A stretch of DNA of 40,199 bases from Promethearchaeia archaeon (GTDB lineage Archaea; Asgardarchaeota; Lokiarchaeia; Sigyniarchaeales; SOKP01). Under the pieces are notes generated by a model. The model had not been told where the DNA came from. It saw only the letters and a program-made list of their open reading frames with translations, and made no database searches. This document shows, piece after piece, positions 7,034 through 33,159 of the stretch. The DNA lies in assembly GCA_029856105.1 (NCBI GenBank), contig JAHQWH010000074.1, positions 1 to 40,199 on the forward strand, given 5' to 3'. Both the position numbers and the translations under genes were made by a program. Numbering within the stretch: position 1 is the first letter of the stretch; each line of letters begins with the position of its first letter.

Positions 7034-7558
7034 TTAAGAAGTAATATTTAATCTTACATATACAACATCATAAAATCTTCTAATACCTGCAGAAGGGATT
7101 TCCCATAATTCCGCAATTATAGTTTGATTCGTTCCGGCTTGTGAAAAGGAAATGTTAAATGCACTTGAAATCCAAACCTCTCTATGCGGTAAAGTAATCG
7201 TAGATGAATTTACAAATGAGATTGCGTTTAACGAGGGGAATGGGCCTAGTACAGTATCGTTATTTCCCTTCAAAATTTCTATATGGAATGAAAAATCCCG
7301 ATTTAAATAATTTCCAACAGAAATATAAAAAGTAATATTTTCATCAATTGCAGCATTTGTAGGGTAATTTTCTGCTTTTTTGTCAGAATTTAAAATACCA
7401 AGATACCAATAACCCGGTTTAGGAGTTATTACGGCATAAATTATAAAGCCAGACACAATAAATATACCGGTTATTAAGAGAATTTTGAGAATTTTGTCAA
7501 ATTCTTCAAAACTATTAAGTACTTTTTTTTTTCCTTCTTTACTTTTCATTTTGAACAT
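7034..7558 (-). CDS. DUF1616-like membrane-anchored protein
   Basis: One N-terminal TM helix followed by LGILNSDKKAENYPTN and a beta-rich domain; start overlaps the end of the upstream gene. Confidence 0.7.
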   Translation of the reverse strand: MFKMKSKEGKKKVLNSFEEFDKILKILLITGIFIVSGFIIYAVITPKPGYWYLGILNSDKKAENYPTNAAIDENITFYISVGNYLNRDFSFHIEILKGNNDTVLGPFPSLNAISFVNSSTITLPHREVWISSAFNISFSQAGTNQTIIAELWEIPSAGIRRFYDVVYVRLNITS

Positions 7559-8649
7559 TATTTTTAAACCAAGCTATTGTTTTCAATAACCCATCTTTTA
7601 AAGAAGTTGTAGGTTGCCAATTTAGAATTCTTTTTGCCTTTCTTAAATCAGCAGATCTTCTAACAGGATCGTCGATAGGCAAAGGTTTGAATACAATTTC
7701 TGAATTAGAATTAGTCAATTCTATTATTATTTTAGCTAATTGTAAAATAGTGTATTCTTTATCGTTACCCAAATTAATAACTTCTCCAATTGCTTCGTCT
7801 TTATAAACTACCTTTAAAATTCCTTCAATCTCATCTACAACATAAATGAAAGAACGAGTTTGAGAACCATCGCCAAAAATTGTAATATCTTCGTCGCTTA
7901 ACGCTTGACGAATAAAATTTGGAACAACTCTTCCAAACTCCGGTCCAGATCTGATTCTTGGTCCAGAAGTGTTAAAAATTCTTATTACTTTCGTTCTGAT
8001 TCCGTGTTGTAATTCATACGCCTTGACAAAAGCCTCTCCAGCCCTTTTAGACTCGTCGTAACAACTTCTGGGACCTACGGGGTATGCGCTCTTATAGGAA
8101 ATCCTAATTAAGATTTACGTGCCCAAAATAGGTCTCAGGTGTCGGAATTGCTTCATCGGGAGGATTACCATACACTTCCGAAGTACTTGTATAGAAAAAT
8201 AACGCATTATGGGCTTTTGCAATACCTAAAGCGTTCATCGTTCCAAGAGTATTACTTTTTAGTATTGGAATTGGAAATCTTTTAAATTCAAATGGAGACG
8301 CCCTGCTAGCCATATGCATAACAATATCAATTCTCTTAATATCGCCCACGCAAATCCCGTTTGGATGATGAGTCATTCCAAAATAAATAGGTTTAGAAAT
8401 ATCGTGATTAATAAAACGGAAATTTTCTTTTTCCATCAAATGAGAGATGTTATCGAACCTCCCTGAAGATAAATTATCTAAACATATGCAATATGCCCCT
8501 TGATTTACTAAAACATCGCAGACCCAAGAACCCAGGAATCCTGCGCCTCCAGTTACTAAAATAGTTTTATCTTGAAATGTAATGTTATCTTTTCTAAGAC
8601 GATTAATTATTTCAATAACATCATCTTGTACATTATAAATCATTATCAC
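7539..8649 (-). CDS. UDP-glucuronate decarboxylase (UXS)-like extended SDR, interrupted by a 31-nt putative intron (exon 1 8649-8115, exon 2 8083-7539; 359 aa spliced)
   Basis: Exon 1 has TGGAGFLG, HMASRASP and TSTSEVYG. Exon 2 is open and reads PVGPRSCYDESKR (YxxxK)...RIFNTSGPR...GDGSQTRSF...DDPVRR. Removing 31 nt gives 1080 nt in one frame. Confidence 0.88.
8084..8114 (-). other. Putative BHB-type (tRNA-like) intron within a protein-coding gene
   Basis: Pre-mRNA reads ACGU AA^A UCUUA AU UAGG AUUU CCUA UAAGA GCGC AU^A, with flanking exon-exon stem GACCUAU/GUAGGUC plus GGG/CCC. Cuts at the ^ positions restore the reading frame. Confidence 0.75.
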
Positions 8650-8740
8650 TCTCTCTTGTTTTTAAAGTTATAAATCTAATCAATATTAATAAATTTATTA
8701 CTCTATTAAAGTAATCTCAGTTTTTAAAATTCGTCGTATT

Positions 8741-9331
8741 TTAAACCCTTAATTTTATACCTGTTTTATCTTCAAATTCATTGTAAAAGTTCGAAAATCG
8801 TGGGAATAAAGCAGTTTTCACTTCACAAGATATACAAGAAATCTTGATTGCATTCTTCAATAAAGATTGATTATTATAAAGCCCAAGTTCTGATAAAATA
8901 TGAAGAATTTCCCAAATTTTTTTACAATATTTGTTAATTTCTTGTAGTTTTTCAATATCAGCTCTTTCTGGATTTAAACTTAACTTTTTCATGTGATTTT
9001 TAAGTTTTTCAGCGATATCTCCATCTTCCACTTCAAGATTCTTTAATAAGACAATTAATCGTGAAGTATGGGTAATTAGATCTTTCTCATACCTAGAGAT
9101 TAATTCACTATGAGAATTCTTAGTATAATTCCTTGGTTTTGCAAATTTTAAACGAACAATAGACTGCTTGTAATTAAAGAAGGTTCTTAATTGTCTTGAG
9201 AGTTCGTTTATTCGCTCTTCACCCTCTATCAAATACCATTCATGAAATATGTTTTCTTCATCATATTCCAAATATGGTTCATCACAAAAGTCATCATCAA
9301 TAATAGTTAGTTTATCATTATTATGTTCCAT
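8741..9331 (-). CDS. Hypothetical protein (acidic N-terminus, helical)
   Basis: 196-aa ORF; no recognisable motif. Confidence 0.6.
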   Translation of the reverse strand: MEHNNDKLTIIDDDFCDEPYLEYDEENIFHEWYLIEGEERINELSRQLRTFFNYKQSIVRLKFAKPRNYTKNSHSELISRYEKDLITHTSRLIVLLKNLEVEDGDIAEKLKNHMKKLSLNPERADIEKLQEINKYCKKIWEILHILSELGLYNNQSLLKNAIKISCISCEVKTALFPRFSNFYNEFEDKTGIKLRV

Positions 9332-9476
9332 AACAGCATTATCTTACCTTTCTATATAAATAAAAAAAAAAGAAATAGAACAAATCAAAGATTTTTTTTT
9401 TAATATCAGATTTTTGAATTTAAAAAATCTTATTATATTAGACCTAAATTTAATCTTTGGATTACTACAAATAGAA

Positions 9477-10082
9477 TTAGCGAGTTTTTTGTCCACAATA
9501 TTGGCAGTATTTAAGCTCTAATGGATAATATTTATTACAACTAGAACATTTTTTTAAAGAATTCTTGAGAATCTCTCGTCCAAGCATTTCAAAGACATTT
9601 TCTACATTTTCTCCCGTCTTTGAAGAAACTCCAATTATTTCTCCCTGAAATTTGTATTTATCAAATGCATCTTTAGCGTCTTCATGTTTGACTTCCCTTT
9701 GATTTTCTAAATCAATCTTAGCTTCAATCATTAATTTTGTTTTTGGAGAATTTGGAACTGAAGTAATAACCTTAACCCAATCGTGAAGATCTATTAAGGA
9801 ATCTCTATTTGTAATGTCATAAAGAACAAGAGCTCCAGAAGCGCCCGAAACGTAAGAAGGTAATAAAAGACGGAACTTTTTTTCTCCTGCAAAATCCCAA
9901 ATGTTGAGAAGAATCTCTGTATCGTCCACTACAACCTTTTTTGTTTCGAAATCAACTCCTATTGTCGATAAAGTTGATTTATCAAACTTTCCAGTAGCGT
10001 AGCGCCTAATGAGAGATGTTTTTCCTACATTTTTAGCCCCTGCTACTATTACTTTAAATTTGATAATTGTTTTTACACCAAG
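9477..10082 (-). CDS. Rab/Ras-like small GTPase with C-terminal zinc ribbon; true start lies upstream of the ORF-track start at 9929
   Basis: Frame is open up to 10091 and encodes FKVIVAGAKNVGKTS (G1), STIGVDF (G2), WDFAG (G3), AKID (G4), SSK (G5) and CSSC...CQYC. No ATG/GTG/TTG lies in frame upstream of the P-loop, so the start is approximate. Confidence 0.85.
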   Translation of the reverse strand, partial: LGVKTIIKFKVIVAGAKNVGKTSLIRRYATGKFDKSTLSTIGVDFETKKVVVDDTEILLNIWDFAGEKKFRLLLPSYVSGASGALVLYDITNRDSLIDLHDWVKVITSVPNSPKTKLMIEAKIDLENQREVKHEDAKDAFDKYKFQGEIIGVSSKTGENVENVFEMLGREILKNSLKKCSSCNKYYPLELKYCQYCGQKTR

Positions 10083-10381
10083 TTTTTTTGATTATAATCT
10101 TATTATTGTAAATATTAGAATATAAGTATTAATCTTTAATCATAAAAATTTTATTATTAATTTTAATTGTTTGTTTTTTCAATCTTTAAAAAATTTCTTA
10201 TGTAATTATGAAATTTTATTACAACCTTTTTAGTATTATTTGCCATAAAAAGTATCCTTTTATTTATAGAATTCAATATTGAATAAAAAAAAGCTAAATT
10301 TACTTCTATGTGTGTGTTCTTTCGCTTTTACATTAAAAACTATAAGCAATATTTTAATAGAAAAAAAAATATTGTCAAATC

Positions 10382-11689
10382 ATGGAAAATCGTTCAAATA
10401 AAAAATATATAGGGACTTTATCACAGAAAGAGTTAATGAAATTATACGCAAAGCATGTGAACGCACCAAAAGTTCGCACTTTTAAAGGATTTGGGTTAGG
10501 TGTCGTACTGGGAGAGCGAAAAGGAGTCAAATTTAGGACGCTTGCGGGACCAAAACCCTCTGATCCGCCAATGGAACTGTTTAATTGCCACACGTGTGGA
10601 GGCGTTTATAATTTAGGTCATCAAAATCCAAGAATTATTCAAGTTCTTAAGGATGCTATAGATGGGGGGCTAGATATAGGTGATCATCTGCTATTATCAG
10701 AATGGAGAGCTATTTTGGGGAAAAAATTAGCGGAATTAATGCCTCCAGGAATAACAAAAACTACTTTTGGAGTTAGCGGTGGTGAAGCAGTTGATACTGC
10801 CATTAAATTTTCAAGGGCATATACAAAAAGGAAAGGATGTATCTCTGCAATTGGAGGATTTCACGGGCATACCGGATTTGCCTTGGCAACTGGAGACTCT
10901 GGCTTTAAGGAAAATTTTTTATGGAATCTTCCTGGTTTTGAGCAAGTTCCTTTTGGCGATGGAGACGCCTTGAAAAAAACTATTTCGGATGATGTTGCGT
11001 GCGTTATTTTAGAAACTATTCCTGCTACAGCCGGAGTATTAATCGCTCCAGAAGGGTACTTTTCAGAGGTTCGGGAACTCTGCGACAAACATGGGGTTAT
11101 GATGATCATTGACGAAGTTCAAGCCGGACTTGGACGAACGAGTCATTTCTGGGCGATTTATGGTGGTTTATATGAGAATGAAAAAGTTGTTCCTGACTTT
11201 ATGGTTTTAGGGAAAGGTATGAGCTCAGGGATATATCCAATCTCTACTTGTAGTTACAAACCATTTATAGAGAAGTCAGTTTTTAAAGACGATCCGTTCA
11301 TTCACATTTCTACAACTGGTGGCTCAGATTTAGGTTGTGCGATTGCGTGCGAGATGTTAGACATACAATCCGATCCCGAATTTTTAAAACACGTAAAAGA
11401 AATGGGTAAGTTGTTTGGCAAAGGTTTAGAAGAAATAGCGGACGATAATTCTGAATTAATAAAAGAAGTGAGGGGAAGAGGGCTTATATGGGGGATGGAA
11501 TTTAATAGCGAAACATTTGGGCAATTAGCTATGCTCTCCATAATAAAAGAAGGCGTTTTACAAAATTACTGTGGTAATAGAAAAAATACTCTTATTATGA
11601 TGCCACCATTAATCGTGAAAGAAGAAGAAATTGAAGAGATAATAGAGAGAATAGGTAAAGGCGTCCATAATCTTAAAAAATTAAGTTAA
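10382..11689 (+). CDS. Class III PLP aminotransferase (putrescine/acetylornithine aminotransferase-like)
   Basis: SGGEAV, GFHG, DEVQAGLGRT, LGKGMSSG (PLP lysine), VRGRGL. Confidence 0.92.
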   Translation: MENRSNKKYIGTLSQKELMKLYAKHVNAPKVRTFKGFGLGVVLGERKGVKFRTLAGPKPSDPPMELFNCHTCGGVYNLGHQNPRIIQVLKDAIDGGLDIGDHLLLSEWRAILGKKLAELMPPGITKTTFGVSGGEAVDTAIKFSRAYTKRKGCISAIGGFHGHTGFALATGDSGFKENFLWNLPGFEQVPFGDGDALKKTISDDVACVILETIPATAGVLIAPEGYFSEVRELCDKHGVMMIIDEVQAGLGRTSHFWAIYGGLYENEKVVPDFMVLGKGMSSGIYPISTCSYKPFIEKSVFKDDPFIHISTTGGSDLGCAIACEMLDIQSDPEFLKHVKEMGKLFGKGLEEIADDNSELIKEVRGRGLIWGMEFNSETFGQLAMLSIIKEGVLQNYCGNRKNTLIMMPPLIVKEEEIEEIIERIGKGVHNLKKLS

Positions 11690-11707
11690 AAATATTTTTT
11701 TCTCAAT

Positions 11708-14056
11708 TTAGGAGTCACTATGATATTTAAATCTACTTAATTTATAGATTTCTTGAGCGATTTTCTTTCCAATACTCTCAACTTTCAATAAATCACCAAT
11801 TTCAGCGTTGAAAATCTCTTGGAGGGTTTTCAATTCTCGGAGAAGGTTTCTTGCTCTACGCGCATTTACGCCAGGAACGCCTGCAACAATGTATTCTAAT
11901 AAACGAGAAATTTCGATGGGTTTCTTCTCAAATCTTAGTTTTAACTCACCTTTAACACTAGATTGTTCTTTTTTCGCTAATTGAAAAAGGAAAGTAGCAG
12001 TTTCATGGGAATCTTTTGTTTTGTATATAGAAATTCCTAAATTCAAAATAATGGAAGTTAATGCACCATAGAGCGCGTTTTGATTAATATTCGAATTAAT
12101 AAAAACATCTCCTTCTAAAATTAAGATGGGTCTAATAAAGTTATTTTTTAAATCATTCAGTTCGTTAAATAATCTTCCATCTTTAATAGAATCGTTAAAA
12201 TCTTGGGCAGATTTTCGTTCAATTCCAACTCTTTCCGACACTATGTAATCAGCCACAGCTAGTTGTTTTAACTTTAAATCAACCCCCATTAAGGATAGTG
12301 TTCTAACAACCGCAGAGGCGGTTTCTCTATTGTCACAAATAATTGTAAATTCTTCGGCACCTTCAATTTTTTGGATCAACTGAATTTCGTTTTGATTTTT
12401 TAAATTAGCCTTATCTCTACTTTCTTTTTCTTTTTTAACGAAATTTAAGAGACTAGATTGCCCAACGACCTTAGAGTTGGAATCAGTTTCTTTTATTTTT
12501 TTTAAACTCTGTTTCATAGTACGCTCCTTAGCTTTTTCTGCCCAATAGTATCCTTCATCACGAGTACCCTCAGCCATTAAAATAATGACTTTTCCTTCTT
12601 TTTTTCTACCAGTCCTCCCGCGACGTTGAATTGAACGTATAGCACTCGGAACGACATCGTAAAAAATCACTAAATCACATTCTGCGATATCTAATCCTTC
12701 TTCGCCAACGCTCGTTGCTATTAATGTATTGTAAACCCCCTCTTTAAAGTCGTCAAGAAGGCTGATTTGTTTCTTTTGAGTTAAACCTTTGTCAGATGTT
12801 TTACTCTGTTGTCCAACGAATTTATGTGCCGTTATACTAAGATCTTTTTTAAGAAACTTAACTATATTGTTAACAGAATCCCTAAAATGACAAAATACCA
12901 AAACTCTTGAATTAATATTTCCAATTATCTGATTATGTAGAATTTCCGCTAATTTTTCTAATTTAGGATGTACGACTCCCTTTATTTTGTTAGTCTCAAT
13001 TAATTCAATAACGCGTTTAATGTCAGGATCTCTTAGGAGTTCTTTTAACGATTTATTTGCTGTATTTTGTTTTATTTTTTCTACATTTTTTTTCATGTAA
13101 TCATCTAAAGCGCTCAATCCCTGAGTTTCTATAAGTTCATCCATATGAGAAAGCCTTATAGCATTTGCAGTATATTTTTTAGCCGTAAATAATTGGAACT
13201 TCTCGTCATCAGTTCTAGATGTCGAAATCCTCCCATTGATTACTTTATCTAAAGCTAATAAATTCTTTCTTGTAACTTTAGAGATATCTGATGTATTCAA
13301 TAATTCTTTTTGCTTTAACCACTTATAGATTGTTCTTAATTTTTCTGAAATAATTTTTTTAATATCTAAAAACTCGCTTGGAAGCTTAACCTTAATCCAC
13401 TCGTTATCGACTTTGTAAATGTAAGGTTTAACGTCTGAATCAAGATCTGTTCTAATTTCAAGGTGATCGATAAATAAATTATTTTTTATTTCATTAATCT
13501 TCCCTTCCGTTGATCCTGGACTTGCCGTAAGCCCTAATATTTGAGGATTTTTCGAGGTTTCCATGTACTTTTTAGCAATAAAACAATATGCGTAATCCCC
13601 AACGGCTCGATGGCATTCATCAAAAATAATTAAACTAACATTATTTGTAGAATAAAGATTTGAAATTATGTCATTTTGGAGCACTTGTGGCGTCATAAAA
13701 GCGACCTTTAAATCATCCCATAATTCTTTCCTATTTTCTGGTGAGGTCGTTCCTGTAATTGCTTTCAAGCTTTGAGAAGGAATAACAGTCAATCCTAAGA
13801 ACGATTTATAATGTTGATTGACTAATGGTTTGGTTGGAGCTAAAAATATTACTTTCGAATTGGGTTTTTCTGTTAATCTCTGTACCGCTAACATCAAACC
13901 TATAATAGTTTTTCCTAGCCCCGTAGGAATAACCACTAAACAGTTGGTGTTTAGGCAATTAATAAATATACTTTCTTGATAAGCTCGCCTTAAGACTGCA
14001 TTTTCTTTAATTAATGGGTGAGATATATACTGCTCTTTTTTTATAGAGATCACCAA
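11708..14056 (-). CDS. hef: Hef helicase-associated endonuclease (FANCM/XPF-like)
   Basis: PTGLGKT, DECH, TAS and QRRGRTGR helicase motifs; ERK nuclease domain; C-terminal HhH. Confidence 0.95.
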   Translation of the reverse strand: MVISIKKEQYISHPLIKENAVLRRAYQESIFINCLNTNCLVVIPTGLGKTIIGLMLAVQRLTEKPNSKVIFLAPTKPLVNQHYKSFLGLTVIPSQSLKAITGTTSPENRKELWDDLKVAFMTPQVLQNDIISNLYSTNNVSLIIFDECHRAVGDYAYCFIAKKYMETSKNPQILGLTASPGSTEGKINEIKNNLFIDHLEIRTDLDSDVKPYIYKVDNEWIKVKLPSEFLDIKKIISEKLRTIYKWLKQKELLNTSDISKVTRKNLLALDKVINGRISTSRTDDEKFQLFTAKKYTANAIRLSHMDELIETQGLSALDDYMKKNVEKIKQNTANKSLKELLRDPDIKRVIELIETNKIKGVVHPKLEKLAEILHNQIIGNINSRVLVFCHFRDSVNNIVKFLKKDLSITAHKFVGQQSKTSDKGLTQKKQISLLDDFKEGVYNTLIATSVGEEGLDIAECDLVIFYDVVPSAIRSIQRRGRTGRKKEGKVIILMAEGTRDEGYYWAEKAKERTMKQSLKKIKETDSNSKVVGQSSLLNFVKKEKESRDKANLKNQNEIQLIQKIEGAEEFTIICDNRETASAVVRTLSLMGVDLKLKQLAVADYIVSERVGIERKSAQDFNDSIKDGRLFNELNDLKNNFIRPILILEGDVFINSNINQNALYGALTSIILNLGISIYKTKDSHETATFLFQLAKKEQSSVKGELKLRFEKKPIEISRLLEYIVAGVPGVNARRARNLLRELKTLQEIFNAEIGDLLKVESIGKKIAQEIYKLSRFKYHSDS

Positions 14057-14243
14057 AAAATATCGTTCTAAAAGTCTTTTTACAGTTATGTTTTTAATAT
14101 AAATTTTAAAGTTACAGAGTCTATAGAATCTCTTAAATTATATTAATACCTTTTATTATTAAATTTATTATTAATAAATTTAAATTTCTCAATAAAATTA
14201 GCGCGAGTGGTTTAGCCGTATAACGACACGCTCACACCGTGTA

Positions 14244-14275
14244 AATCTTCGCTGATTTACAGCGTAAATCTCGAC
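14244..14275 (+). other. tRNA variable-loop intron (32 nt, relaxed BHB)
   Basis: CGUG UA^A ... CGCUG-AUUUA-CAGCG ... CUCG AC^G; central helix has 3 of 4 pairs. Confidence 0.7.
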
Positions 14276-14289
14276 GGTCGGGGGTTCAA

Positions 14290-14319
14290 AAAATTGAAAA
14301 TCTCTTTCAAATTGAATTA
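14290..14319 (+). other. tRNA T-loop intron (30 nt, BHB)
   Basis: GUUC AA^A AAAUUGAAA-AUCUC-UUUCAAAUU GAAU UA^U; 4-bp helix with two 3-nt bulges. Confidence 0.78.
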
Positions 14320-14434
14320 TTCCCCCCTTGCGCACCATACTTAAGCAAGGGAAAAATTTAAACTTACTTAATTTACGATAAAAACCAAAAAAGTTTTATT
14401 TTATATTACATTTCAAAATTTAATTACTATTTCT

Positions 14435-22044: not shown

Positions 22045-22884
22045 TTAATATTCGTTCGGTAATTTTTTAAGCTCTGCCAAAGAAAAAACGGGACCATCGA
22101 TACAGACAAATTTATTGCCAATATTGCATCTCCCACATTTTCCAATTCCGCACTTCATCCTCATTTCTAATGAATTTAGTACCTGTTCGTCATTAAATTT
22201 CAATTCTTCTAGAACTGCTATTGTCGTCTTAATCATGATTGGGGGGCCACACACTACAGCTATAGCGTTATCCGAAGAAGGTGCTACTTCTTTTACAATA
22301 GGGGCTACGAAACCAACTTTTTCTTTCCACCCTTCCTCTTCGCGATCAATAGTTAAAACCACTTCGATATCGTCGTGTTTTTTCCAATCTTCTAAAACAT
22401 CGCGGTATAAAACTTCGCCGGAGTCGCGATTTCCATAAATTACTGTGATCTTCTTGTAATCCTTTCTGTGCTTCTCGTTTAACAAGTAAATAACGAGGGA
22501 CCTTAAAGTTGAAAACGCAAACCCCCCACCAATAACCACAATATCCTTACCCTTCATTTCGTCAATAGGCCATCCGTTTCCAAAAGGACCTCTTACGCCT
22601 ACAACATCTCCAATATTGCAGTTATGAAATTCCGATGTTACGGTCCCCATCTTTTTTATAGTAAATTTAATCGAGCTTTCTTCAGTAGGAGATGAAGCAA
22701 TTCCTATAGGTGCTTCACCCTTTCCTATTAAACTTATTTCAGCGAATTGTCCAGGAATATAATTGAATTTGTTATAATCTTCTTCTTTCTTAAATTCTAA
22801 TTCAAGAGTTTTAATGTCATTAAATTTGTTTTCAGAAACAATATTTTTTACGGTGGTAAGCATTGGGATATAAAGATTAGGCAC
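22045..22884 (-). CDS. FAD/NAD(P)-binding 2Fe-2S subunit (FlxA/AsrB/HydG-like)
   Basis: PGQF, RGPFGNG, CGPPIM, MKCGIGKCGRC...CIDGPVF. Confidence 0.9.
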   Translation of the reverse strand: MPNLYIPMLTTVKNIVSENKFNDIKTLELEFKKEEDYNKFNYIPGQFAEISLIGKGEAPIGIASSPTEESSIKFTIKKMGTVTSEFHNCNIGDVVGVRGPFGNGWPIDEMKGKDIVVIGGGFAFSTLRSLVIYLLNEKHRKDYKKITVIYGNRDSGEVLYRDVLEDWKKHDDIEVVLTIDREEEGWKEKVGFVAPIVKEVAPSSDNAIAVVCGPPIMIKTTIAVLEELKFNDEQVLNSLEMRMKCGIGKCGRCNIGNKFVCIDGPVFSLAELKKLPNEY

Positions 22885-23938
22885 TCACATTCTCCTCCTC
22901 TTTTGGTTTTATATTATTTATTTTATTAATTATTGTTCTGAGATCGTTATTAACTGGGCATACTTGGATACATCGTCCACACCCCACACATCCAATTAGG
23001 TCGTAATTCAAGGGGTAATAACTAAATTTGTGTAATATACGATTTCGGCATCGCTCAATATTACTATCGCGTGGATTGTGACCGCTCGTATGAAGTGTAT
23101 AAAGGCAGAATTGGCAAGTGTCCCAGATTCTTATTCGTCTGCCACGATTCTCGTATTGAGCATTCTCATCGATAACATCAAAACAAGTGCATGTAGGGCA
23201 TAAAAATGTACACGATCCACACCCTAAACAATTTTCACTAACCTCTTTCCAAATTTCGTTGGCAAAATTACTATTTAAAATCTCACTCGTGTTAGTTAGA
23301 TCTAATTTTGTGGTTATTAAATTTTCTGCCTTCTTTGCTAATTCTTGTGCTTTTTTTACGTCTGCTTTAGAAGCTTTTGAAAGCCATGACAATTGTTGAA
23401 TTAAGTTATTTCCTTTCTCGCTTACACCTTCTACTAAATATTTGTCGCCTAAATCTACTAAAAAAATATCCATATCATCTTTTTGGAAGGGATGTCCTTC
23501 AACCGATATACAAAAACACGTGCTTTTTGGAGAATTACAACCAATTCCTATTATTAAGCTATTTTTTCTTTTTTTTAAAAATATTTCATCTTGGAAATCT
23601 CCAAAAGCGAAGAATTTTTCTAACAGATCAAAACTATGAGCGTCGCACGGTCTTATGCCGAAAAGAATATTTTTTTCGTCTAAATCTTTTCTATCTTCAA
23701 TTTCTGTAACATTTTTACCATCTGTTTTAAACTCAAAAAGAACTTCCATTTGTGGAAACAAAATTTCTTTTGGCGGAATTTTAGAATTGAAATAATTTAA
23801 TTCAATTTCTTCTGGGTTCGAAATATTTCTATAAGCAATATAACCTTTTTCTTTGACGGGAGCAAAGAAATTATATTCTCCTGATAACTCATTATACAAC
23901 TTTGCGATTTGGTCTTTCATTAAAATCATTACTTCCAT
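22877..23938 (-). CDS. 4Fe-4S dicluster protein (FlxB/AsrA/HydB-like)
   Basis: FGIRPCD, CLGCGSCTFLCPTC, HKF, CVGCGRCIQVCP. Confidence 0.88.
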   Translation of the reverse strand: MEVMILMKDQIAKLYNELSGEYNFFAPVKEKGYIAYRNISNPEEIELNYFNSKIPPKEILFPQMEVLFEFKTDGKNVTEIEDRKDLDEKNILFGIRPCDAHSFDLLEKFFAFGDFQDEIFLKKRKNSLIIGIGCNSPKSTCFCISVEGHPFQKDDMDIFLVDLGDKYLVEGVSEKGNNLIQQLSWLSKASKADVKKAQELAKKAENLITTKLDLTNTSEILNSNFANEIWKEVSENCLGCGSCTFLCPTCTCFDVIDENAQYENRGRRIRIWDTCQFCLYTLHTSGHNPRDSNIERCRNRILHKFSYYPLNYDLIGCVGCGRCIQVCPVNNDLRTIINKINNIKPKEEENVSA

Positions 23939-23954
23939 TTTCTCACCACTTATA

Positions 23955-24968
23955 TTAATCCTCTTCCATCATAAATTCTTCTTTATCATCCATCTTAAAC
24001 GACATCATTGGAGATACCGTTTCTTTATCCATACCTGAAGTGAAATTATATCTTTCTTTTACAATTTTCTCTAATTTTCTCGTTATTAAATTCAAATCTA
24101 TACCCATAGGGCAAACGCTGCTACAAGCGCCGCAAGCAACACATCTACCCGCTAAGTGCATAGCTCGATTAAAATGAAAAGCAAAAATGTCTGTAAAATC
24201 AGTTGTTTTTCCAAACCAAATAGGTTTATTTTGGTCCACGAAACACAGATTGCAATAACACATCGGACACACTTCTCTACACGCATAACATCTCGTGCAT
24301 GCGCTTAAAGTATCTTTAATATACGCCCATTTTTCTTCAGAAGTTTTGGATTCAAAATCAGAAATGTCGTTAAAATCATCTTCAATAACGGGATTCTCTA
24401 AGCATTCTCCTACGCATGAGTCGTTCACATTAGGAGGGGATTTAACCTTACAAACCTTGCATAATTCATTCATATATTCGTCGAAAGGAAATGTTTCTTC
24501 AAAATCTCTTCCCTTTACGATAATATTATTACCCAAAATAGAAGCTTCTAATATTTCTTTTTCTCCAATTTCCTTCTCAATTCTTTTCCTATTTATTATT
24601 CCATTACAGGAAATTCCTATCATTTTAATATTATCAAAATTAATTTGATTCTCGACGGCTAAGTGAATTAACGCTCTTCCAACGCAACCTTTTGCGACAA
24701 TACCAACTTTCAGTTTTTTACCCTCATCATCGTATAGCGTAGGAATTCTAGGAGCTAAATAATTAGCCAAATTTACGTAACATAAATTATCCCACATCAA
24801 TTTATCCACATCTTCTTCATTTGTAATGAAAACTGGAGAAGAGCTTAAGGGTACTGTTCCGTTTGTATAGCCGATAATAACGTCAACTTCCTTTTCTCTA
24901 AGCAAATTCCTTGCTAATTCTTTAATCTTATTTCCGATGTCTTGGTTTTCTGATTCAATATCTCCCAC
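23955..24968 (-). CDS. 4Fe-4S protein (FlxC/FdhB-like)
   Basis: CTRCYACREVCPMCYC, HLAGRCVACGACSSVCP. Confidence 0.85.
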   Translation of the reverse strand: MGDIESENQDIGNKIKELARNLLREKEVDVIIGYTNGTVPLSSSPVFITNEEDVDKLMWDNLCYVNLANYLAPRIPTLYDDEGKKLKVGIVAKGCVGRALIHLAVENQINFDNIKMIGISCNGIINRKRIEKEIGEKEILEASILGNNIIVKGRDFEETFPFDEYMNELCKVCKVKSPPNVNDSCVGECLENPVIEDDFNDISDFESKTSEEKWAYIKDTLSACTRCYACREVCPMCYCNLCFVDQNKPIWFGKTTDFTDIFAFHFNRAMHLAGRCVACGACSSVCPMGIDLNLITRKLEKIVKERYNFTSGMDKETVSPMMSFKMDDKEEFMMEED

Positions 24969-24974
24969 TTTTTA

Positions 24975-25436
24975 TCACCATTTTTTCTCAAATTTTTTAT
25001 TTGGTCCCAATTTTCTAACCAACTTGGTGGTTTTTCTTATCAAAACAGCAAATCGTTCGCCTTCAGCAGCAGAAGCCCACATAAAATTAACTCTATCTGG
25101 TTCAATTCCAAAGAATTCTAATAAATCCTTTAAAATTCCAAACCTTCTTCTAGCTACTAAATTTCCTGTTAAATAATGGCAATCTCCGGGATGGCATCCA
25201 GAAACCAGTACTCCATCCCATCCATCTAATAATGCTTTTACTATAAAATAAGGATTTATTCTACCTGAACATGGAACTCTAACTACTCTAATATTTGGAG
25301 GGTATTGAATTCTACTCACTCCTGCTAGATCTGCTCCCGCATAGGAACACCAATTACATAAAAATGCTAATATCTTAGGTTCCCAATCATCATTATTTTT
25401 TTTCATTTGTTCTGTTTCACTTGTAATTTCGTTCAT
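24975..25436 (-). CDS. mvhD: MvhD/FlxD 2Fe-2S subunit
   Basis: CNWCSYAGADLAG, CSGR, GCHPGDCHY. Confidence 0.93.
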   Translation of the reverse strand: MNEITSETEQMKKNNDDWEPKILAFLCNWCSYAGADLAGVSRIQYPPNIRVVRVPCSGRINPYFIVKALLDGWDGVLVSGCHPGDCHYLTGNLVARRRFGILKDLLEFFGIEPDRVNFMWASAAEGERFAVLIRKTTKLVRKLGPNKKFEKKW

Positions 25437-25440
25437 TTTA

Positions 25441-28400
25441 TTAATTCCTCCCAGTTATCATTGCAAATATCTGTTCACCTGTAAAACCGCGAATGTCAAT
25501 GGCAGCACACCTGCAGTTCCCAGCGCACGCTCCACATCCTTTACAGAGTACTGAATTAATATATGCAACTCTACCGAATCGCCTATCATCGATTAATTCA
25601 ATAGCATTATATGCGCAATTATCAATGCACATCCCACATCCAGTGCAACGAGCCATGTCAACCTCTCCAATTTTACCTTCGACCTCGATCTCGTCTTTAG
25701 AGAGAATTGTACAAGCCCTTGCTACAGCTGCGTTAGCTTGAGAAATAGAATCCTCAATTGGTTTTGGACAATGTGCTAATCCTGCCACGAATACGCCTTC
25801 TGTAGCGAAATCTACTGGACGTAATTTAACATGGGCTTCTAAAAAGAAATTATCGTCGTTTAAAGGAACTTTTAGCATCATTGCTAACTCCTCGTTATCC
25901 TCACGTTTTGCTATAATACCCGCACTTAAAACTAAAAGATCGGATTCAATTGTAATTTCTCCCATCTTCGCAGTCTTTAATTTAACTTTTAATACTGAGC
26001 CTTCTGAAATTATTTCAGGAGGTTCATTTTCTTCGTATTTAATGAATATTACTCCTTTTTCTCGCGCCTCACGATAATACTTTTCTTTAAACCCATATGT
26101 TCTTATATCCCTAAATAAAACTACAACTTCAACGTTTGGATTTTTTTGTTTTGCCAAAAGAGCGTTCTTTATAGCTTCAGCACAACACATTTTACTGCAA
26201 TAAGGATGCTCGTCGTTTCTAGAACCAACACACTGGATCATAACTACTGATTTTTTATCGTTAATATCATTAGAAGTGTTTAATAGTTTTTCAAATTCTG
26301 ATTGTAGAATTACTTTGTTATTTTGACCGTATAAAAACTCTGTAGGTTGATATTCTTTGGCTCCCGTAGCTACAAGCACCACTCCGTGCTCAAATTCTGT
26401 TTTCTCTTTCTTTGGACCGTGGATAACTGTAGTTTTAAAATTTCCAATATAACCATCAATAATTTCGATTTCTGCTTGAGTAAAAACACGGATTAATTTG
26501 TTTGAATTGATCTTTTCAATTAGATCTGATACAAATTCTTGAACGTTGCCACCTTCAAGCGTGTTATATATATGTCGAGCAAACCCCCCCAATTCTTTTT
26601 GTTTTTCAACCAAAAACGTCTCATATCCTTGCGTTGCAAAATTAAGTGCAGCAACCATTCCACTAATTCCGCCGCCTACAATTAAAGTTTTTTGCGTTAC
26701 TGGTAATTTTATCCTTTCGATCGCTTCAATATTTCTTGCTTTATTTACAGCCATCCTCACGAGGTCCTTAGCTTTTTCGGTTGCTTTGTCCCACTCGTTC
26801 ATGTGAACCCAGGAACATTGATCTCTGATATTTGCCATTTGAAATAAATACCTATTTAAACCCGCTTCTCTAATTGTTTCTTGAAACAATGGTTCGTGAG
26901 TTCTTGGCGTACAAGAAGCAACAACAACGCGGTTAAGGTGATATTCCTTTATTGTATCTTTTATTATTGTCTGAGTATCTGCCGAACATGTATATAAATT
27001 ATTATCAGCTAAAACTACATTTGGAAGATTATTTGCATATTTGGTAACTTCTGGTACATCTAAAAAGCCCCCTATGTTAATTCCACAGTGACAGATAAAC
27101 ACACCAATTCTGGGCGGTTGCCCTCTTACAAATATCTCCGGAGGAAGCGATTTTTCTTTTATTAATGTACCTTTCTTTTCGTATAAAAGTTGATTAACGC
27201 AACCAGCAGCAGCGCTAGCTTGCGTAACTGTATCTGGAATGTCTTTAGGCGAAGAGAAAGCTCCACATGCAAATATTCCAGGTTTTGATGTTTGTACGGG
27301 GTTAAAAATGTCTGTTATAGCAAAATCATATTCATTTAATTCTACACCGAACTTCTCCGCAAGAAATTTAGCGTCGTTAGGAGGATTTAAGCCAACTGCA
27401 AGGACTACCATGTGATAATATTCTTCTACTACTGTACCATCTTCCGTTTCATATTTAATTCTTAAGTCTTTCGTTTCTGGTACTTCGGTTATTGAAGATA
27501 CACGGCTTCTAATATAGCGAACGCTATATTCTTCTTGTGCCCGAATAATGTATTTATCAAAATCTTTACCATATGCCCTTACATCCATGCTGAAAATCGT
27601 TGGTTGTATTTGATGCATGTGTTCATGGGCAATTACTGCTTCTTTCGCAGTATACATACAACATACTGACGAACAATAGGGCTTTCCTTTACCTGTGTAA
27701 TCACGAGAGCCTACACATTGGAGGAATGCAACTTTTTCGGGGATATCTCCGTCCGAGGGCCGTAATACTCTCCCCGCGTAAGGACCACTAGCACTTAAAA
27801 TTCTTTCAAACTCTATGCTCGTAACTACATTCTTATACTTTCCATACCCATAAAGATTACCTTCTGGTGGGATGTATTCGTCAAACCCAGGAGCCAATAT
27901 TATTGCACCAACATTAATTTCGACTTCTTCGTCTTTTCTATCGTATTCTATAGCTTTTGCTTTGCAAACTCCTTGACAAATTCCACACCCAATACAATAA
28001 TTTTTATCAATAGCAAATACGAGAGGTACTGCTTGAGGATATTTAACTGATGTTGCTGCGTATTTCGCTAAACCTTCATTAAAGACATCAATCGCTTCAA
28101 CAGGACACTCGCGACCACATACTCCACAGCCAGTGCATTTTTCAGGGTTTATATATAACGATTTTTTTAGTACTTTTATCGTAAAATTTCCCGCTTCTCC
28201 TATAACATCTTGAATTTCACAATTAATACTTAAATCTATGTTCTGGTGTCGCCCAGTTTCAACTAACTTAGGACTTACTATACACATCGCACAATCGTTC
28301 GTAGGAAAAGTTTTATCCAACTGTGCCATTACGCCACCAATACTCGTCGTGGATTCAATCAAATAAACTTTATATCCCGAATCAGCTAAGTCTAACGCCG

Positions 28401-28455
28401 CTTGTGAACCCCCAATTCCCGCGCCTACAACCATTACTGCCCCAATCTTTTCCAT
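25441..28455 (-). CDS. hdrA: Large HdrA-family flavoprotein (1004 aa, two FAD-binding modules)
   Basis: GAGIGG, QLDKTFPTNDC, CVGSR, CSSVCC, CHCG, ASCTPRTHE, second GGGISG, C-terminal ferredoxin. Confidence 0.93.
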   Translation of the reverse strand: MEKIGAVMVVGAGIGGSQAALDLADSGYKVYLIESTTSIGGVMAQLDKTFPTNDCAMCIVSPKLVETGRHQNIDLSINCEIQDVIGEAGNFTIKVLKKSLYINPEKCTGCGVCGRECPVEAIDVFNEGLAKYAATSVKYPQAVPLVFAIDKNYCIGCGICQGVCKAKAIEYDRKDEEVEINVGAIILAPGFDEYIPPEGNLYGYGKYKNVVTSIEFERILSASGPYAGRVLRPSDGDIPEKVAFLQCVGSRDYTGKGKPYCSSVCCMYTAKEAVIAHEHMHQIQPTIFSMDVRAYGKDFDKYIIRAQEEYSVRYIRSRVSSITEVPETKDLRIKYETEDGTVVEEYYHMVVLAVGLNPPNDAKFLAEKFGVELNEYDFAITDIFNPVQTSKPGIFACGAFSSPKDIPDTVTQASAAAGCVNQLLYEKKGTLIKEKSLPPEIFVRGQPPRIGVFICHCGINIGGFLDVPEVTKYANNLPNVVLADNNLYTCSADTQTIIKDTIKEYHLNRVVVASCTPRTHEPLFQETIREAGLNRYLFQMANIRDQCSWVHMNEWDKATEKAKDLVRMAVNKARNIEAIERIKLPVTQKTLIVGGGISGMVAALNFATQGYETFLVEKQKELGGFARHIYNTLEGGNVQEFVSDLIEKINSNKLIRVFTQAEIEIIDGYIGNFKTTVIHGPKKEKTEFEHGVVLVATGAKEYQPTEFLYGQNNKVILQSEFEKLLNTSNDINDKKSVVMIQCVGSRNDEHPYCSKMCCAEAIKNALLAKQKNPNVEVVVLFRDIRTYGFKEKYYREAREKGVIFIKYEENEPPEIISEGSVLKVKLKTAKMGEITIESDLLVLSAGIIAKREDNEELAMMLKVPLNDDNFFLEAHVKLRPVDFATEGVFVAGLAHCPKPIEDSISQANAAVARACTILSKDEIEVEGKIGEVDMARCTGCGMCIDNCAYNAIELIDDRRFGRVAYINSVLCKGCGACAGNCRCAAIDIRGFTGEQIFAMITGRN

Positions 28456-28459
28456 AGTC

Positions 28460-29230
28460 TTATTTCACCCATAACCTCATAAATATTGGTGTATTTCCTT
28501 TAATTTCTTGAAAGTCAACTAAACCGCGAGTTTTTAAAGTTATTACATGCTCTAAAACTATACTCGGATCAATACTTAACTCGACAGCTAAATCTTTTAC
28601 AGAATTCGAATCTTTTTCTAAAGCAACTAAAACTCGGTGCCGTTCAAATTCATCTTTTATCGCTTTATCCATTAAAATGTTAAACCTTTGTTCAATGATT
28701 TGTTCCCCATAGACATTTTCACTTTCAAGTAGGGTTTTTTCTCTTCCTACTAATGCTCGCATCCTGTTACTACCCGCGGCCAATTTTATTGCTTTAAGTT
28801 TATCGAGTATATCTTCGTCGGGTTTTCCTCCACTTAGGGGTGAAGGACCCAATTCTTTAATATGTTTAATGAATTCGGTTACAACCTCACCAAATCTAGT
28901 ACCTTCCGAAGCAGAAACCCAATCTAATCTCACTCTTTTATCAAAGTTAATAGATTTAAGAAATTTTTGGGTCATATCAAATTTGGTTATTGCTTCGTAA
29001 TTTCCTTCAAGATAATGGCAATCTCCGGGGTGACATCCCATTACAAATACTCCATCGATTCCTAATTCAAAAGCGTGAAAAATAAATTTAGGGTCAACTC
29101 GACCGCTACACATAACTCTAATTACTCGCATATTCGTAGGGTATTGAATTCTACTAACACCTGCTAAATCGGCACCAGCATAGGAGCACCAATTACATAA
29201 AAAACCTAAAATTCTGGGTTCAAAACTCAT
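28460..29230 (-). CDS. mvhD: MvhD fused to a C-terminal helical/wHTH-like domain
   Basis: MvhD motifs in the first ~130 aa; tail SVKDLAVELSIDPSIVLEHVITLKTRGLV. Confidence 0.85.
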   Translation of the reverse strand: MSFEPRILGFLCNWCSYAGADLAGVSRIQYPTNMRVIRVMCSGRVDPKFIFHAFELGIDGVFVMGCHPGDCHYLEGNYEAITKFDMTQKFLKSINFDKRVRLDWVSASEGTRFGEVVTEFIKHIKELGPSPLSGGKPDEDILDKLKAIKLAAGSNRMRALVGREKTLLESENVYGEQIIEQRFNILMDKAIKDEFERHRVLVALEKDSNSVKDLAVELSIDPSIVLEHVITLKTRGLVDFQEIKGNTPIFMRLWVK

Positions 29231-29232
29231 CT

Positions 29233-30924
29233 TTATTGACCTCCAAAAGCTTCAATTTCAGAAAATATTTGCTCATCTGTAAAATGTCTTATCACAATTG
29301 CTTGATTCGTACATGTTGCAGCACACACTCCGCATCCCTTACATAACGCTTCTATAATTTCAATCTCATCCTCTTCATTTTTGATAATTGCATTAAAAGG
29401 ACAAACTTTGATACATATTTCGCAACCAGTACACAGACTTTTATTATGTTCGGGTAAGTATGATGTTGCTCCATCTACTTCGAGCGACTCATGAGACAAA
29501 ACTCTGCTTGCCCTAGCCGCAGCAGCATATCCTTGAGAGATGGCTTCTGTAATATCTACGGGCCATTTAGCCGATCCACCAATATAGATCCCATCTGTGG
29601 CAAAGTCGTTAGGACGTAGTTTTACATGTGCCTCCAAAAAGAATTTGTTAGCTTCTAAAGGGACCTTTAACATTTGAGCAAGTTCTTTGTTATCGTTATT
29701 TGCAACTAACGGTGTTGATAATACAAGTAAATCATATGGAAGGATCAATTCTTCCCCCATATATTCGTTAAATACTTTTACTTGGTTTTCTTCTACAGTT
29801 GGTACTTTATCAAGACTGTATTTAATAAAGAGAACGCCTTGTTCCCTTGCGTCTCTATAATATTTCTCGTAATCTGTTCCAGGAGTATATAAATCTCTAA
29901 ATAAGATCGTAATATTTGCTTCAGGATTTTTTTCTTTAATAATTAAAGCATTTTTTAAAGCGGTCATGCAACAAACGCTTGAACAGTATGGGCGTTCGTC
30001 AATTCGAGAACCTACGCACTGTATCATTACAAAATTATTTGCTTTTACATCGTTATCTATAAATTTATGTTCCAATTCAAATTGCGTGATTCTTTTTTTA
30101 CCGTCGTACCCATATAAATCGGTAGGCACAAAAAGTGAAGAACCTACAGCAACTATTATAGCCCCTACGGACAATTCAATATTCTTTCCATTTTGTTCTA
30201 CTTCTACCTCAAAATTACCCACAAATCCATCAATATTTTTAACTATGGAAGATGTTAAAACTTGCAAATTTTGAGCTTTTTGAACGTTATTTTTAATTTT
30301 ATCTAAAAGATCTGAAGCGTCTAATTGATGAGGAAAGAGTTTATGAAGCGAATTTAATCTTCCTCCTAATTTATCTTCTTTTTCAATTAAATAAGTTTGA
30401 AATCCTTGCCTGCTTAAATTAAGCGCCGCACTCATTCCAGCGACGCCTCCACCAATTATTAAAGCGGACGGATTAACATTTACCATGATTATATCGAGTG
30501 CTTCAAGTTTTACAGCTTTAGCAGTTCCCATCCTAATTAAATCTTGAGCTTTCTTATAAGCTTCCTCGGGCTGCTTTTGATGTACCCAAGTACATTGATC
30601 GCGAATATTAACAAAGTTAAAGAGATATTTGTTTAAACCCGCTTCGGAAACGCAATCTCGGAATAAGGGTTCGTGAGTTCTTGGCGTACAAGATGCTACA
30701 ACGACGCGATTTAAATCGTGTTCCCCGATTGCCGCCTTAATACTCGCTAAACCGTTCTCTGAACAAGTATATAGGTTATCCTCTGCATAGGCAACATTCG
30801 GAAGACTTTTAGCTTCTTCAGCTAAAGCCTTGCAATCTATCAAACCACCTATATTAGAACCACAGTGGCATACAAATACTCCCACTCTTACATCTTCAAT
30901 ATCTTTCTTTTCTTCTTCTGACAT
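29233..30924 (-). CDS. hdrA: HdrA-family flavoprotein (corresponds to the C-terminal part of the 1004-aa HdrA)
   Basis: VGVFVCHCG, ASCTPRTHE, GGGVAG, CVGSR, FLEAHVKLRP, ferredoxin. Confidence 0.9.
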   Translation of the reverse strand: MSEEEKKDIEDVRVGVFVCHCGSNIGGLIDCKALAEEAKSLPNVAYAEDNLYTCSENGLASIKAAIGEHDLNRVVVASCTPRTHEPLFRDCVSEAGLNKYLFNFVNIRDQCTWVHQKQPEEAYKKAQDLIRMGTAKAVKLEALDIIMVNVNPSALIIGGGVAGMSAALNLSRQGFQTYLIEKEDKLGGRLNSLHKLFPHQLDASDLLDKIKNNVQKAQNLQVLTSSIVKNIDGFVGNFEVEVEQNGKNIELSVGAIIVAVGSSLFVPTDLYGYDGKKRITQFELEHKFIDNDVKANNFVMIQCVGSRIDERPYCSSVCCMTALKNALIIKEKNPEANITILFRDLYTPGTDYEKYYRDAREQGVLFIKYSLDKVPTVEENQVKVFNEYMGEELILPYDLLVLSTPLVANNDNKELAQMLKVPLEANKFFLEAHVKLRPNDFATDGIYIGGSAKWPVDITEAISQGYAAAARASRVLSHESLEVDGATSYLPEHNKSLCTGCEICIKVCPFNAIIKNEEDEIEIIEALCKGCGVCAATCTNQAIVIRHFTDEQIFSEIEAFGGQ

Positions 30925-30929
30925 TTTTT

Positions 30930-32252: not shown

Positions 32253-32282
32253 TATTATTTTTAATTTTTATTTTAATTAAGT

Positions 32283-33158: not shown

Positions 33159-33159
33159 T

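What the first reader, a model, noticed from the sequence alone, without database searches (positions are those of the whole stretch)
8084..14319. Three 30-32 nt hairpin introns with shared architecture: possible spread of tRNA-type introns into mRNAs
The mRNA insert (31 nt) and the two tRNA introns (32 and 30 nt) match in length. All start with A inside an A-rich 5' bulge (AA^A, UA^A, AA^A), contain one AT-rich hairpin, and end with the helix strand plus 2 nt. Their primary sequences differ. Inference: the lineage may carry a population of small BHB introns inserting into structured RNAs. Other apparently frameshifted genes in such genomes could then be spliced genes, which bears on intron origins near the root of eukaryotes.
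Basis: inference. Interest (0 to 1): 0.75.

Follow-up and report, generated by a model that had tools for sequence, protein, structure and literature searches.

The report
tRNA-type mini-introns in Lokiarchaeal genes
A sugar-metabolism gene and a valine tRNA gene of a Lokiarchaeon (Asgard archaeon) are interrupted by 30-32-base hairpin inserts shaped like the cutting site of the tRNA-splicing enzyme. Comparison with relatives indicates that this enzyme also splices messenger RNAs here, which in print is confirmed for only one archaeal gene.

Summary
A UDP-glucuronate decarboxylase (UXS) gene on the minus strand is split by a 31-nt insert at 8084-8114. A tRNA-Val(CAC) gene at 14201-14337 carries two non-canonical introns (14244-14275, 32 nt; 14290-14319, 30 nt). 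All three have the same layout: 4-bp helix, NA^A bulge, hairpin, helix strand plus 2 nt.

The UXS insert is not an error or a dead gene:
- It sits at the same site in 14 of about 126 genomes, in four genera.
- Its removal matches intron-less orthologues to the nucleotide.
- Its helices show compensatory changes.
- Both gene halves stay under strong purifying selection (dN/dS 0.03-0.08) inside a clade where every member carries it.

The genome encodes two EndA subunits and RtcB. I also checked further cases. A radA-like gene has a 31-nt insert with a covarying stem. The single-copy uL11 gene has two inserts, and congeners show every presence/absence combination.

The best reading is EndA/RtcB splicing of BHB introns in mRNAs. 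RNA evidence could not be obtained. Structure-only genome scans gave no enrichment over a control. The scan had already found this kind of intron on other DNA (DPANN, other Asgard). The nearest case in print is the cbf5 intron.

The parts
8115..8643 (-). UXS (UDP-glucuronate decarboxylase, SDR/Epimerase family) exon 1. It starts at ATG 8643-8641 (or GTG 8649) and ends ...GGGCACGTAA.
   Evidence: Pfam Epimerase positions 1-126. It is 74-95% identical to full-length orthologues named UDP-glucuronate decarboxylase.
8084..8114 (-). 31-nt BHB-type intron in the UXS pre-mRNA. It starts with the third bulge base (A), then stem TCTTA/TAAGA with an inner TAGG/CCTA hairpin, then helix strand GCGC, then AT. 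It contains an in-frame TAG (8104-8106) and shifts the frame by +1.
   Evidence: My own scan places a BHB at exactly these borders. 14 carrier genomes show compensatory changes.
7539..8083 (-). UXS exon 2 (ACCCCGTAGG...; holds the catalytic YDESK motif), with the stop codon at its low end.
   Evidence: Pfam Epimerase positions 135-240. The frame is intact in all carriers. dN/dS is 0.03-0.06.
8066..8132 (-). The whole folded splice-site structure: exon-exon helices (GAGACCTAT with GTAGGTC, GGG with CCC), central helix ACGT/GCGC, two bulges and the intron hairpin.
   Evidence: Minimum-energy fold. Pair counts on alignment A1: 90.6% of cells paired against 32-50% for slid partners. Carriers keep 8-10 of the 10 exon-exon pairs; intron-less alleles keep 5-10.
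14201..14337 (+). tRNA-Val(CAC) gene with an encoded CCA, in three exons (14201-14243, 14276-14289, 14320-14337).
   Evidence: ARAGORN on the spliced sequence. Syntenic orthologues in 20 relatives.
14244..14275 (+). tRNA intron 1, 32 nt, between positions 44 and 45 (variable loop). The central helix is CGTG (3' strand of the anticodon stem) paired with CTCG; the bulges are TA^A and AC^G.
   Evidence: It is absent in G023 and G016, which read CGTGT-AGGTC. The inner stem covaries and the helix partner is CACG in four species.
14290..14319 (+). tRNA intron 2, 30 nt, in the T loop between A58 and T59. The central helix is GTTC paired with GAAT; the bulges are AA^A and TA^T.
   Evidence: It is absent in G010, G017 and G005, which have a 7-nt T loop. 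The 9-bp inner stem has compensatory changes.

Best explanation
The 31-nt insert in the UXS gene is an archaeal bulge-helix-bulge (BHB) intron. In the transcript, the last bases of exon 1 (ACGT) pair with the GCGC near the intron's 3' end to form the central helix. The intron's own hairpin stacks on one side of this helix, and exon 1 pairs with exon 2 on the other. This presents two 3-nt bulges. The splicing endonuclease EndA (here two about-200-aa subunits, so the broad-specificity alpha-beta type) would cut after the second base of each bulge (AA^A and AT^A). RtcB would then join the exons, restoring ...GTA AAC CCC... (V-N-P) and releasing the intron. The two tRNA-Val introns are handled in the same way.

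Shown: the structure, its conservation and covariation, exact restoration of the gene, selection on both halves, and the presence of both enzymes. Inferred: cleavage and ligation in the cell.
For: 1. Precise insert. Exactly 31 nt (30 in one genome) at one site in 14 independent assemblies from four genera. About 110 other orthologues read straight through, some with identical flanks GGGCACGTAA|ACCCCGTAGG.
2. Structure. 90.6% of cells paired against 32-50% for slid partners; 5 pairs with changes on both sides against 0-2. Examples are stem A-U to G-C, central helix C-G to U-A, and outer helix G-C to A-U. In four alleles A-U closes the fourth pair of the central helix.
3. Bulge bases. The synonymous third base of the Val codon is always A in the 14 carriers and varies (A, G, T, C) in intron-less alleles.
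4. The gene is alive. Frames are intact after removal. dN/dS is 0.03-0.08 for both halves in a clade where all members carry the insert. The split falls inside one Pfam domain, ahead of the catalytic YxxxK. No close paralogue turned up in G000.
5. Borders set by homology coincide with the cleavage rule 'between second and third bulge residue' (PMC2738675). The chance frequency of such a motif is 1.6e-4.
6. Machinery. Two tRNA_int_endo proteins and RtcB. Asgard EndA is reported as (alpha-beta)2 with the L1 loop that allows relaxed motifs (PMC5829648).
7. The same architecture occurs in tRNA-Val introns with covariation, in a radA-like gene, and twice in the only uL11 gene found.
Against: The G000 motif is relaxed. 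The central helix has an A-C mismatch, and the 3' bulge faces one unpaired C.

A structure-only search for more cases gave no enrichment over a mirror-image control. In 118 kb aligned between G000 and G017, no further coding insert appeared.

The intron is more conserved (29 of 31 between G000 and G004) than synonymous sites in the exons (dS above 2). Simple vertical descent of a neutral spacer does not predict that.
Confidence: 0.85

Rival explanations
1. The insert is a DNA insertion that killed the gene. The UXS copies that carry it are pseudogenes.
For: The insert shifts the frame and brings a stop codon. Most relatives lack it.
Against: Both halves stay open in all 14 carriers. dN/dS is 0.03-0.08 within an all-carrier clade. 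The insert keeps its length and its pairing, with compensatory changes. The same kind of insert splits the single uL11 gene, which cannot be dispensable.
Confidence: 0.03
2. The ribosome bypasses the 31 nt (translational hopping, as in phage T4 gene 60 or mitochondrial byp elements). The mRNA is not spliced.
For: This is a short coding gap with a hairpin and a stop codon inside. Hopping also needs a structured gap.
Against: There are no matching take-off and landing codons that would restore V-N-P. The Asn codon AAT is followed 31 nt later by TAC before CCC. The GTA...GTA pair would delete two invariant residues. These are direct readings of the sequence. The same architecture is found in tRNA genes, which are not translated.
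Confidence: 0.03
3. The insert is removed from the RNA, but by something other than EndA/RtcB (another endonuclease, or self-cleavage).
For: No enzyme assay exists for this lineage. The 3' site departs from a strict 3-nt bulge.
Against: The layout and the cut positions follow the BHB rule in the mRNA and tRNA cases examined here. EndA and RtcB are encoded. No ribozyme or other RNA family is detected in the window.
Confidence: 0.05
4. The two halves are made as separate polypeptides that assemble into an active enzyme (a split gene).
For: Both halves are conserved.
Against: The break lies inside one Rossmann/Epimerase domain. The second half has no start codon at its beginning. The 14 carriers keep an RNA structure rather than translation signals.
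Confidence: 0.02

Closest known systems
BHB intron of the cbf5 pre-mRNA in Crenarchaeota (Watanabe 2002; Yoshinari 2006; Yokobori 2009, PMC2738675)
   Same: A short intron inside a protein-coding sequence with a relaxed BHB at the exon borders, cut between the second and third bulge residues by a hetero-oligomeric EndA. It also shows gain and loss among related species.
   Different: The host genes differ (UXS, a radA-like gene, uL11 and others) and so does the phylum (Lokiarchaeia/Promethearchaeota). Several genes are affected per genome. Size is uniform at 28-38 nt. Presence/absence changes even between near-identical strains. Splicing is not yet shown by cDNA.
Non-canonical and multiple tRNA introns of Thermoproteales and of Asgard archaea (Sugahara 2008; Fujishima 2010; PMC11291895; bioRxiv 10.64898/2026.10.13.758758)
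   Same: The two tRNA-Val introns (44/45 and 58/59) are of this kind: BHB at non-anticodon positions, several per gene, repeated gains and losses.
   Different: Those studies treat tRNA genes only, and the two Asgard papers do not mention protein genes. Here the same architecture is seen in mRNAs of the same genome. There are no shared intron sequence families, unlike Thermoproteales.
Translational bypassing elements (T4 gene 60; byp elements of Magnusiomyces mitochondria)
   Same: Short non-coding gaps of 27-55 nt inside coding sequence, with local structure.
   Different: There are no matched take-off and landing codons here. The same elements occur in tRNA genes. The structure follows the BHB rule.

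Membership tests
Archaeal BHB intron (EndA/RtcB-spliced) | Two 3-nt bulges on opposite strands, separated by a 4-bp helix and flanked by helices | tested here: met
   Met in relaxed form for the UXS intron. The 5' bulge AAA is strict. The central helix has 3 pairs plus A-C in G000 and 4 pairs in four orthologues. The 3' bulge ATA faces one unpaired C. The motif is close to strict for tRNA intron 2, uL11 intron 1 and Elf1.
Archaeal BHB intron (EndA/RtcB-spliced) | Cutting between the 2nd and 3rd bulge residues yields the functional product | tested here: met
   The predicted cuts give the exact sequence of intron-less orthologues for UXS. For the tRNA they give a 75-nt tRNA-Val recognised by ARAGORN. 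The rule is taken from PMC2738675.
Archaeal BHB intron (EndA/RtcB-spliced) | Helices maintained in evolution (covariation) | tested here: met
   A1: 5 pairs with compensatory change, 0-1 of 500 shuffles as high. A2: 7 pairs and 29 cells. The radA-like stem reads GCGAC/GTCGC, GTGAC/GTCAC and ATGAT/ATCAT.
Archaeal BHB intron (EndA/RtcB-spliced) | The organism encodes the splicing endonuclease and the RNA ligase | tested here: met
   Two PF01974 proteins of about 200 aa (C107, C12). One PF01139 RtcB (C191).
Archaeal BHB intron (EndA/RtcB-spliced) | Excision and exon ligation observed in RNA (spliced junction, circular intron) | not testable with these tools
cbf5-type pre-mRNA intron | The host gene is cbf5, and the intron position is the one conserved in Desulfurococcales and Sulfolobales | tested here: not met
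   The host is a UXS/Epimerase gene. The mechanism appears the same, but the intron is not homologous.
Translational bypass element | Identical take-off and landing codons flanking the gap | tested here: not met
   Read from the sequence: AAT before the gap and TAC before CCC after it. The GTA...GTA pair would drop the conserved N-P.
Repeated mobile element (MITE-like) with target-site duplication | Multiple copies in the genome, and a direct repeat at both ends | tested here: not met
   There is no second copy of the 31-mer in G000. The apparent repeat ACGTAAA / ACGTATA in some alleles follows from the central helix being a palindrome. The radA-like, uL11 and Elf1 introns show no such repeat.

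The most novel reading that the evidence does not exclude
Lokiarchaeia of this family carry a turning-over population of about 30-nt BHB mini-introns in many protein genes, including essential ones (uL11, a RadA-like recombinase, Elf1, a histone). Splicing of mRNAs by EndA and RtcB would then be a routine step of gene expression in close archaeal relatives of eukaryotes. The introns would move in and out of alleles by very short recombination tracts. This is suggested by the near-identical UXS intron and its roughly 10-nt flanks in lineages whose synonymous sites are saturated.
Probability: 0.5. Interest if true: 0.85.

Novelty: new member of a known kind. Interest (0 to 1): 0.7.

Why it matters
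In the papers I could search, splicing of an archaeal protein-coding mRNA by the tRNA-splicing enzyme is confirmed for one gene only, cbf5. Recent work on Asgard introns covers tRNA genes alone. Here the same small introns sit in tRNAs and in several protein genes of one Lokiarchaeon, among them the only uL11 gene found. Four consequences follow.

1. Genes annotated as frameshifted or truncated in Asgard genomes may be intact. Gene catalogues and completeness estimates are affected.
2. The tRNA-splicing machinery has a wider role in these organisms.
3. Closely related strains that differ by single introns offer a way to study how such introns are gained and lost.
4. These are not spliceosomal introns, but they show that interrupted protein genes are tolerated in the lineage nearest to eukaryotes.

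Tried and rejected
1. ARAGORN (with and without intron mode) and Rfam on the unspliced window found no tRNA. The tRNA had to be rebuilt by hand and from orthologues.
2. Structure-only genome scans (BHB score plus fusion of two open frames) recover the UXS intron at its exact borders. They give thousands of hits and no excess over a mirror-image BHB control: 2706 against 2846, 312 against 308, 376 against 400.
3. I aligned 293 kb of G017 to G000 to look for insert polymorphisms. 118 kb aligned, and the 18-70-nt indels were intergenic, with no further coding intron.
4. I looked for copies of the three introns elsewhere in G000 and found only chance short matches. There is thus no evidence for copy-and-paste from tRNA to mRNA.
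5. It fits the UXS ends only because ACGT is a palindrome, and it does not fit the other introns.
I did not try to reach the same data by another route.
7. Translational bypass, split-protein, pseudogene and assembly-error readings were considered and set aside. Reasons are given under the rival explanations.
8. The search for longer homologues gave the gene's name, but nothing that bears on splicing.
Full report
**What is in the window**

The window is contig C74 of a 3.66-Mb, 238-contig assembly. Its nearest named relatives are Promethearchaeota (Lokiarchaeia) MAGs.

On the minus strand, a UDP-glucuronate decarboxylase (UXS) gene of the SDR/Epimerase family is in two frames. ORF 8104-8661 ends ...PETYFGHVNLN*. 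ORF 7539-8114 continues ...YPVGPRSCYDESKR.... Pfam places Epimerase positions 1-126 in the first piece and 135-240 in the second, so one domain is cut just ahead of its catalytic YxxxK. Removing 8084-8114 (31 nt) restores ...GHVN-PVGPR... and a 363-aa frame.

At 14201-14337 on the plus strand lies a tRNA gene that ARAGORN and Rfam miss. After removing 14244-14275 (32 nt) and 14290-14319 (30 nt), ARAGORN calls a 75-nt tRNA-Val(cac).

**The layout used**

The BHB layout, 5' to 3', is:
- outer helix;
- 4-nt helix strand H;
- bulge b1 b2 ^ b3;
- inner stem and loop;
- H' (the partner strand of H);
- bulge b1 b2 ^ b3;
- outer helix.

Cuts fall between the second and third bulge residues, the rule stated for cbf5 (PMC2738675).

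For UXS, H is ACGT, paired with GCGC (three pairs plus A-C). The bulges are AA^A and AT^A. The inner stem is TCTTA/TAAGA, capped by TAGG/CCTA. The outer helix is GGG/CCC, followed by a 7-bp exon-exon helix.

For tRNA intron 1, H is CGTG, borrowed from the 3' strand of the anticodon stem, and pairs with CTCG. For intron 2, H is G53-C56 of the T arm and pairs with GAAT.

**Is the mRNA insert real, and is the gene alive?**

Among 20 congeneric orthologues, 17 read straight through. Three (G000, G017, G004) carry exactly 31 extra bases at one site.

A family-wide search of 135 genomes found 126 orthologues. Fourteen carry the insert, in genera g1, g17, g21 and g22. The length is 31 nt, with 30 nt in one genome. 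They come from unrelated studies and sites (Loki_b32, WORC5, ABR15, Meg22, CSMAG and others). Assembly error is therefore excluded.

On the 14-sequence alignment A1, the proposed structure pairs 90.6% of cells, against 32-50% when partners are slid by 1-3 columns. Five pairs changed on both sides, against 0-2 in the slid controls, and at most 1 of 500 shuffles reached the observed values. Notable changes are:
- the inner stem switches A-U to G-C in eight alleles;
- the central helix switches C-G to U-A in G058;
- the outer helix switches G-C to A-U in G059;
- four alleles have U opposite A23, closing a full 4-bp central helix.

The bulge base that is also the third position of the Val codon is A in all carriers, but A, G, T or C in intron-less alleles. 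Carriers keep 8-10 of 10 exon-exon pairs, while intron-less alleles keep 5-10. This comparison is not corrected for phylogeny.

Both halves evolve under strong purifying selection. dN/dS is 0.03-0.05 between G000 and G004. It is 0.03-0.08 within the clade L152/L153/L160, where every member carries the insert. No close paralogue turned up in G000.

**Distribution**

On an 81-tip gene tree the 12 carriers need at least 9 gains or losses. Within the shallow clade of G000 (93-94% protein identity), four genomes have the insert and three lack it, with identical flanks.

The intron of G004 is 29/31 identical to that of G000, and the 10-11 bases on each side are identical. Yet synonymous sites of the two genes are saturated (dS above 2). 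Either the element and its flanks are tightly constrained, or the intron moves between alleles on very short recombination tracts. I cannot tell which.

**The tRNA introns**

Twenty syntenic tRNA-Val(CAC) orthologues carry one, two or three introns.
- Intron 1 is absent in G023 and G016.
- Intron 2 is absent in G010, G017 and G005.
- A third intron, of about 31-33 nt and in the 5' strand of the anticodon stem, is present in 10 species and absent in G000.

On alignment A2 (14 species, no gaps) the two BHB structures pair 87% of cells, against 37-51% when slid. Seven pairs and 29 cells changed on both sides.

ARAGORN finds only 23 tRNAs in this 92%-complete genome. That fits many hidden interrupted genes. 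Heavy interruption of Asgard tRNA genes is already published (PMC11291895; bioRxiv 10.64898/2026.10.13.758758), so this half of the finding is a known kind.

**Further mRNA cases**

Notes from the first stage of this scan pointed to other genes in the genome. I tested three of them.
1. A radA-like gene on C45 is cut after ...GGAAAT by 31 nt. The insert is present in G000, G017, G015 and two of three copies in G008, and absent in 12 relatives. H' (TTCT) plus AA is invariant, and the inner stem covaries: GCGAC/GTCGC, GTGAC/GTCAC, ATGAT/ATCAT.
2. The only uL11 gene found is cut by inserts of 32 and 29 nt, and removing them gives a canonical uL11. Congeners show all four combinations: both, first only, second only, neither. 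Other families have neither. An essential single-copy gene cannot be a pseudogene in so many species.
3. Elf1 (C191) and a histone gene (C136) show the same pattern in the raw sequence. I did not compare them with relatives.

At random positions, motifs of these classes occur at 2e-5 to 2.5e-4.

**Machinery**

G000 encodes two tRNA_int_endo proteins of about 200 aa and RtcB. Asgard EndA has been classed as (alpha-beta)2 with the L1 loop that permits relaxed BHB motifs (PMC5829648).

**What failed, and what is missing**

Structure-only scans recover the UXS intron. Otherwise they show no excess over a mirror-image control. The number of mRNA introns in this genome is therefore unknown.

A 118-kb alignment with G017 showed no further polymorphic coding insert.

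The introns share no sequence with each other, so copying from tRNA to mRNA is not supported.

**Comparison and novelty**

The closest known case is the cbf5 pre-mRNA intron of Crenarchaeota. According to PMC2738675 it is the only confirmed case, with others merely predicted. Six full-text searches found nothing on mRNA BHB introns in Asgard archaea. Subscription journals are not covered by these searches.

The mechanism and architecture are the known ones. The host genes, the lineage, the number of genes per genome, the narrow size range (28-38 nt) and the strain-level turnover are new. Earlier follow-ups in this scan reached similar conclusions on other DNA: DPANN EF-2 and rtcB, a Jordarchaeum gene, and another Asgard genome. 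I did not test those reports.

**Verdict**

The best explanation is EndA/RtcB splicing of a BHB intron in the UXS mRNA, with confidence 0.85. It is a new member of a known kind, with interest 0.7.

Noticed in passing
window 9477-10065 (-): A small Ras/Rab-like GTPase gene (P-loop GAKNVGKTS) has no ATG, GTG or TTG at its start. Where some congeners have ATG-ATA-AAG, G000 and at least 11 relatives read ATT/ATA-ATC-AAA. This suggests initiation at a near-cognate AUU, AUA or AUC codon. I saw no intron upstream.
   Followed up: partly
L023-L030, L034, L035 (tRNA-Val orthologues; corresponds to window about 14229): Ten congeners carry a third intron of about 31-33 nt in the 5' strand of the anticodon stem of the same tRNA-Val. 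It is absent in G000.
   Followed up: partly
window 14214-14221: The D loop of tRNA-Val reads AGCCGTA (AGACGTA in several relatives, AGTGGTA in others). The usually invariant G18 is replaced while G19 is kept.
   Followed up: no
window 14241-14248 and 14264-14271: An 8-nt direct repeat GTAAATCT spans the 5' border of tRNA intron 1 and recurs inside it. Its meaning is unknown, and it does not behave like a target-site duplication of the whole intron.
   Followed up: no
G000 whole genome: ARAGORN finds only 23 tRNA genes. Several calls look implausible (a tRNA-Phe with a 1171-nt intron, a tRNA-Pyl). Most tRNA genes are probably hidden by non-canonical introns.
   Followed up: no
L152, L153, L160 (UXS orthologues with the intron): The two halves of the gene give discordant distances. 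L152-L153 has dS 0.23 in the first half and 1.17 in the second. L152-L160 has 1.31 and 0.63. This suggests recombination with a breakpoint near the intron.
   Followed up: no
G008 (L083, L098, L101): This genome holds three copies of the radA-like gene, one without the intron and two with different intron sequences. It is rated 9% contaminated, so the copies may come from mixed strains.
   Followed up: no
G000:C16:9697-10255; G010 and G018 orthologues (L205, L209): uL11 intron 1 is 32 nt in G000, G005 and G015, but 38 and 37 nt with a different sequence in G010 and G018 at the same site. This is either independent gain or fast divergence.
   Followed up: partly
window 22045-33657 (-): A run of ten tightly packed minus-strand genes shows marked negative GC skew and higher GC (about 0.36 against 0.30 elsewhere). 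The gene junctions give BHB-like hits in my scan that look like chance.
   Followed up: no
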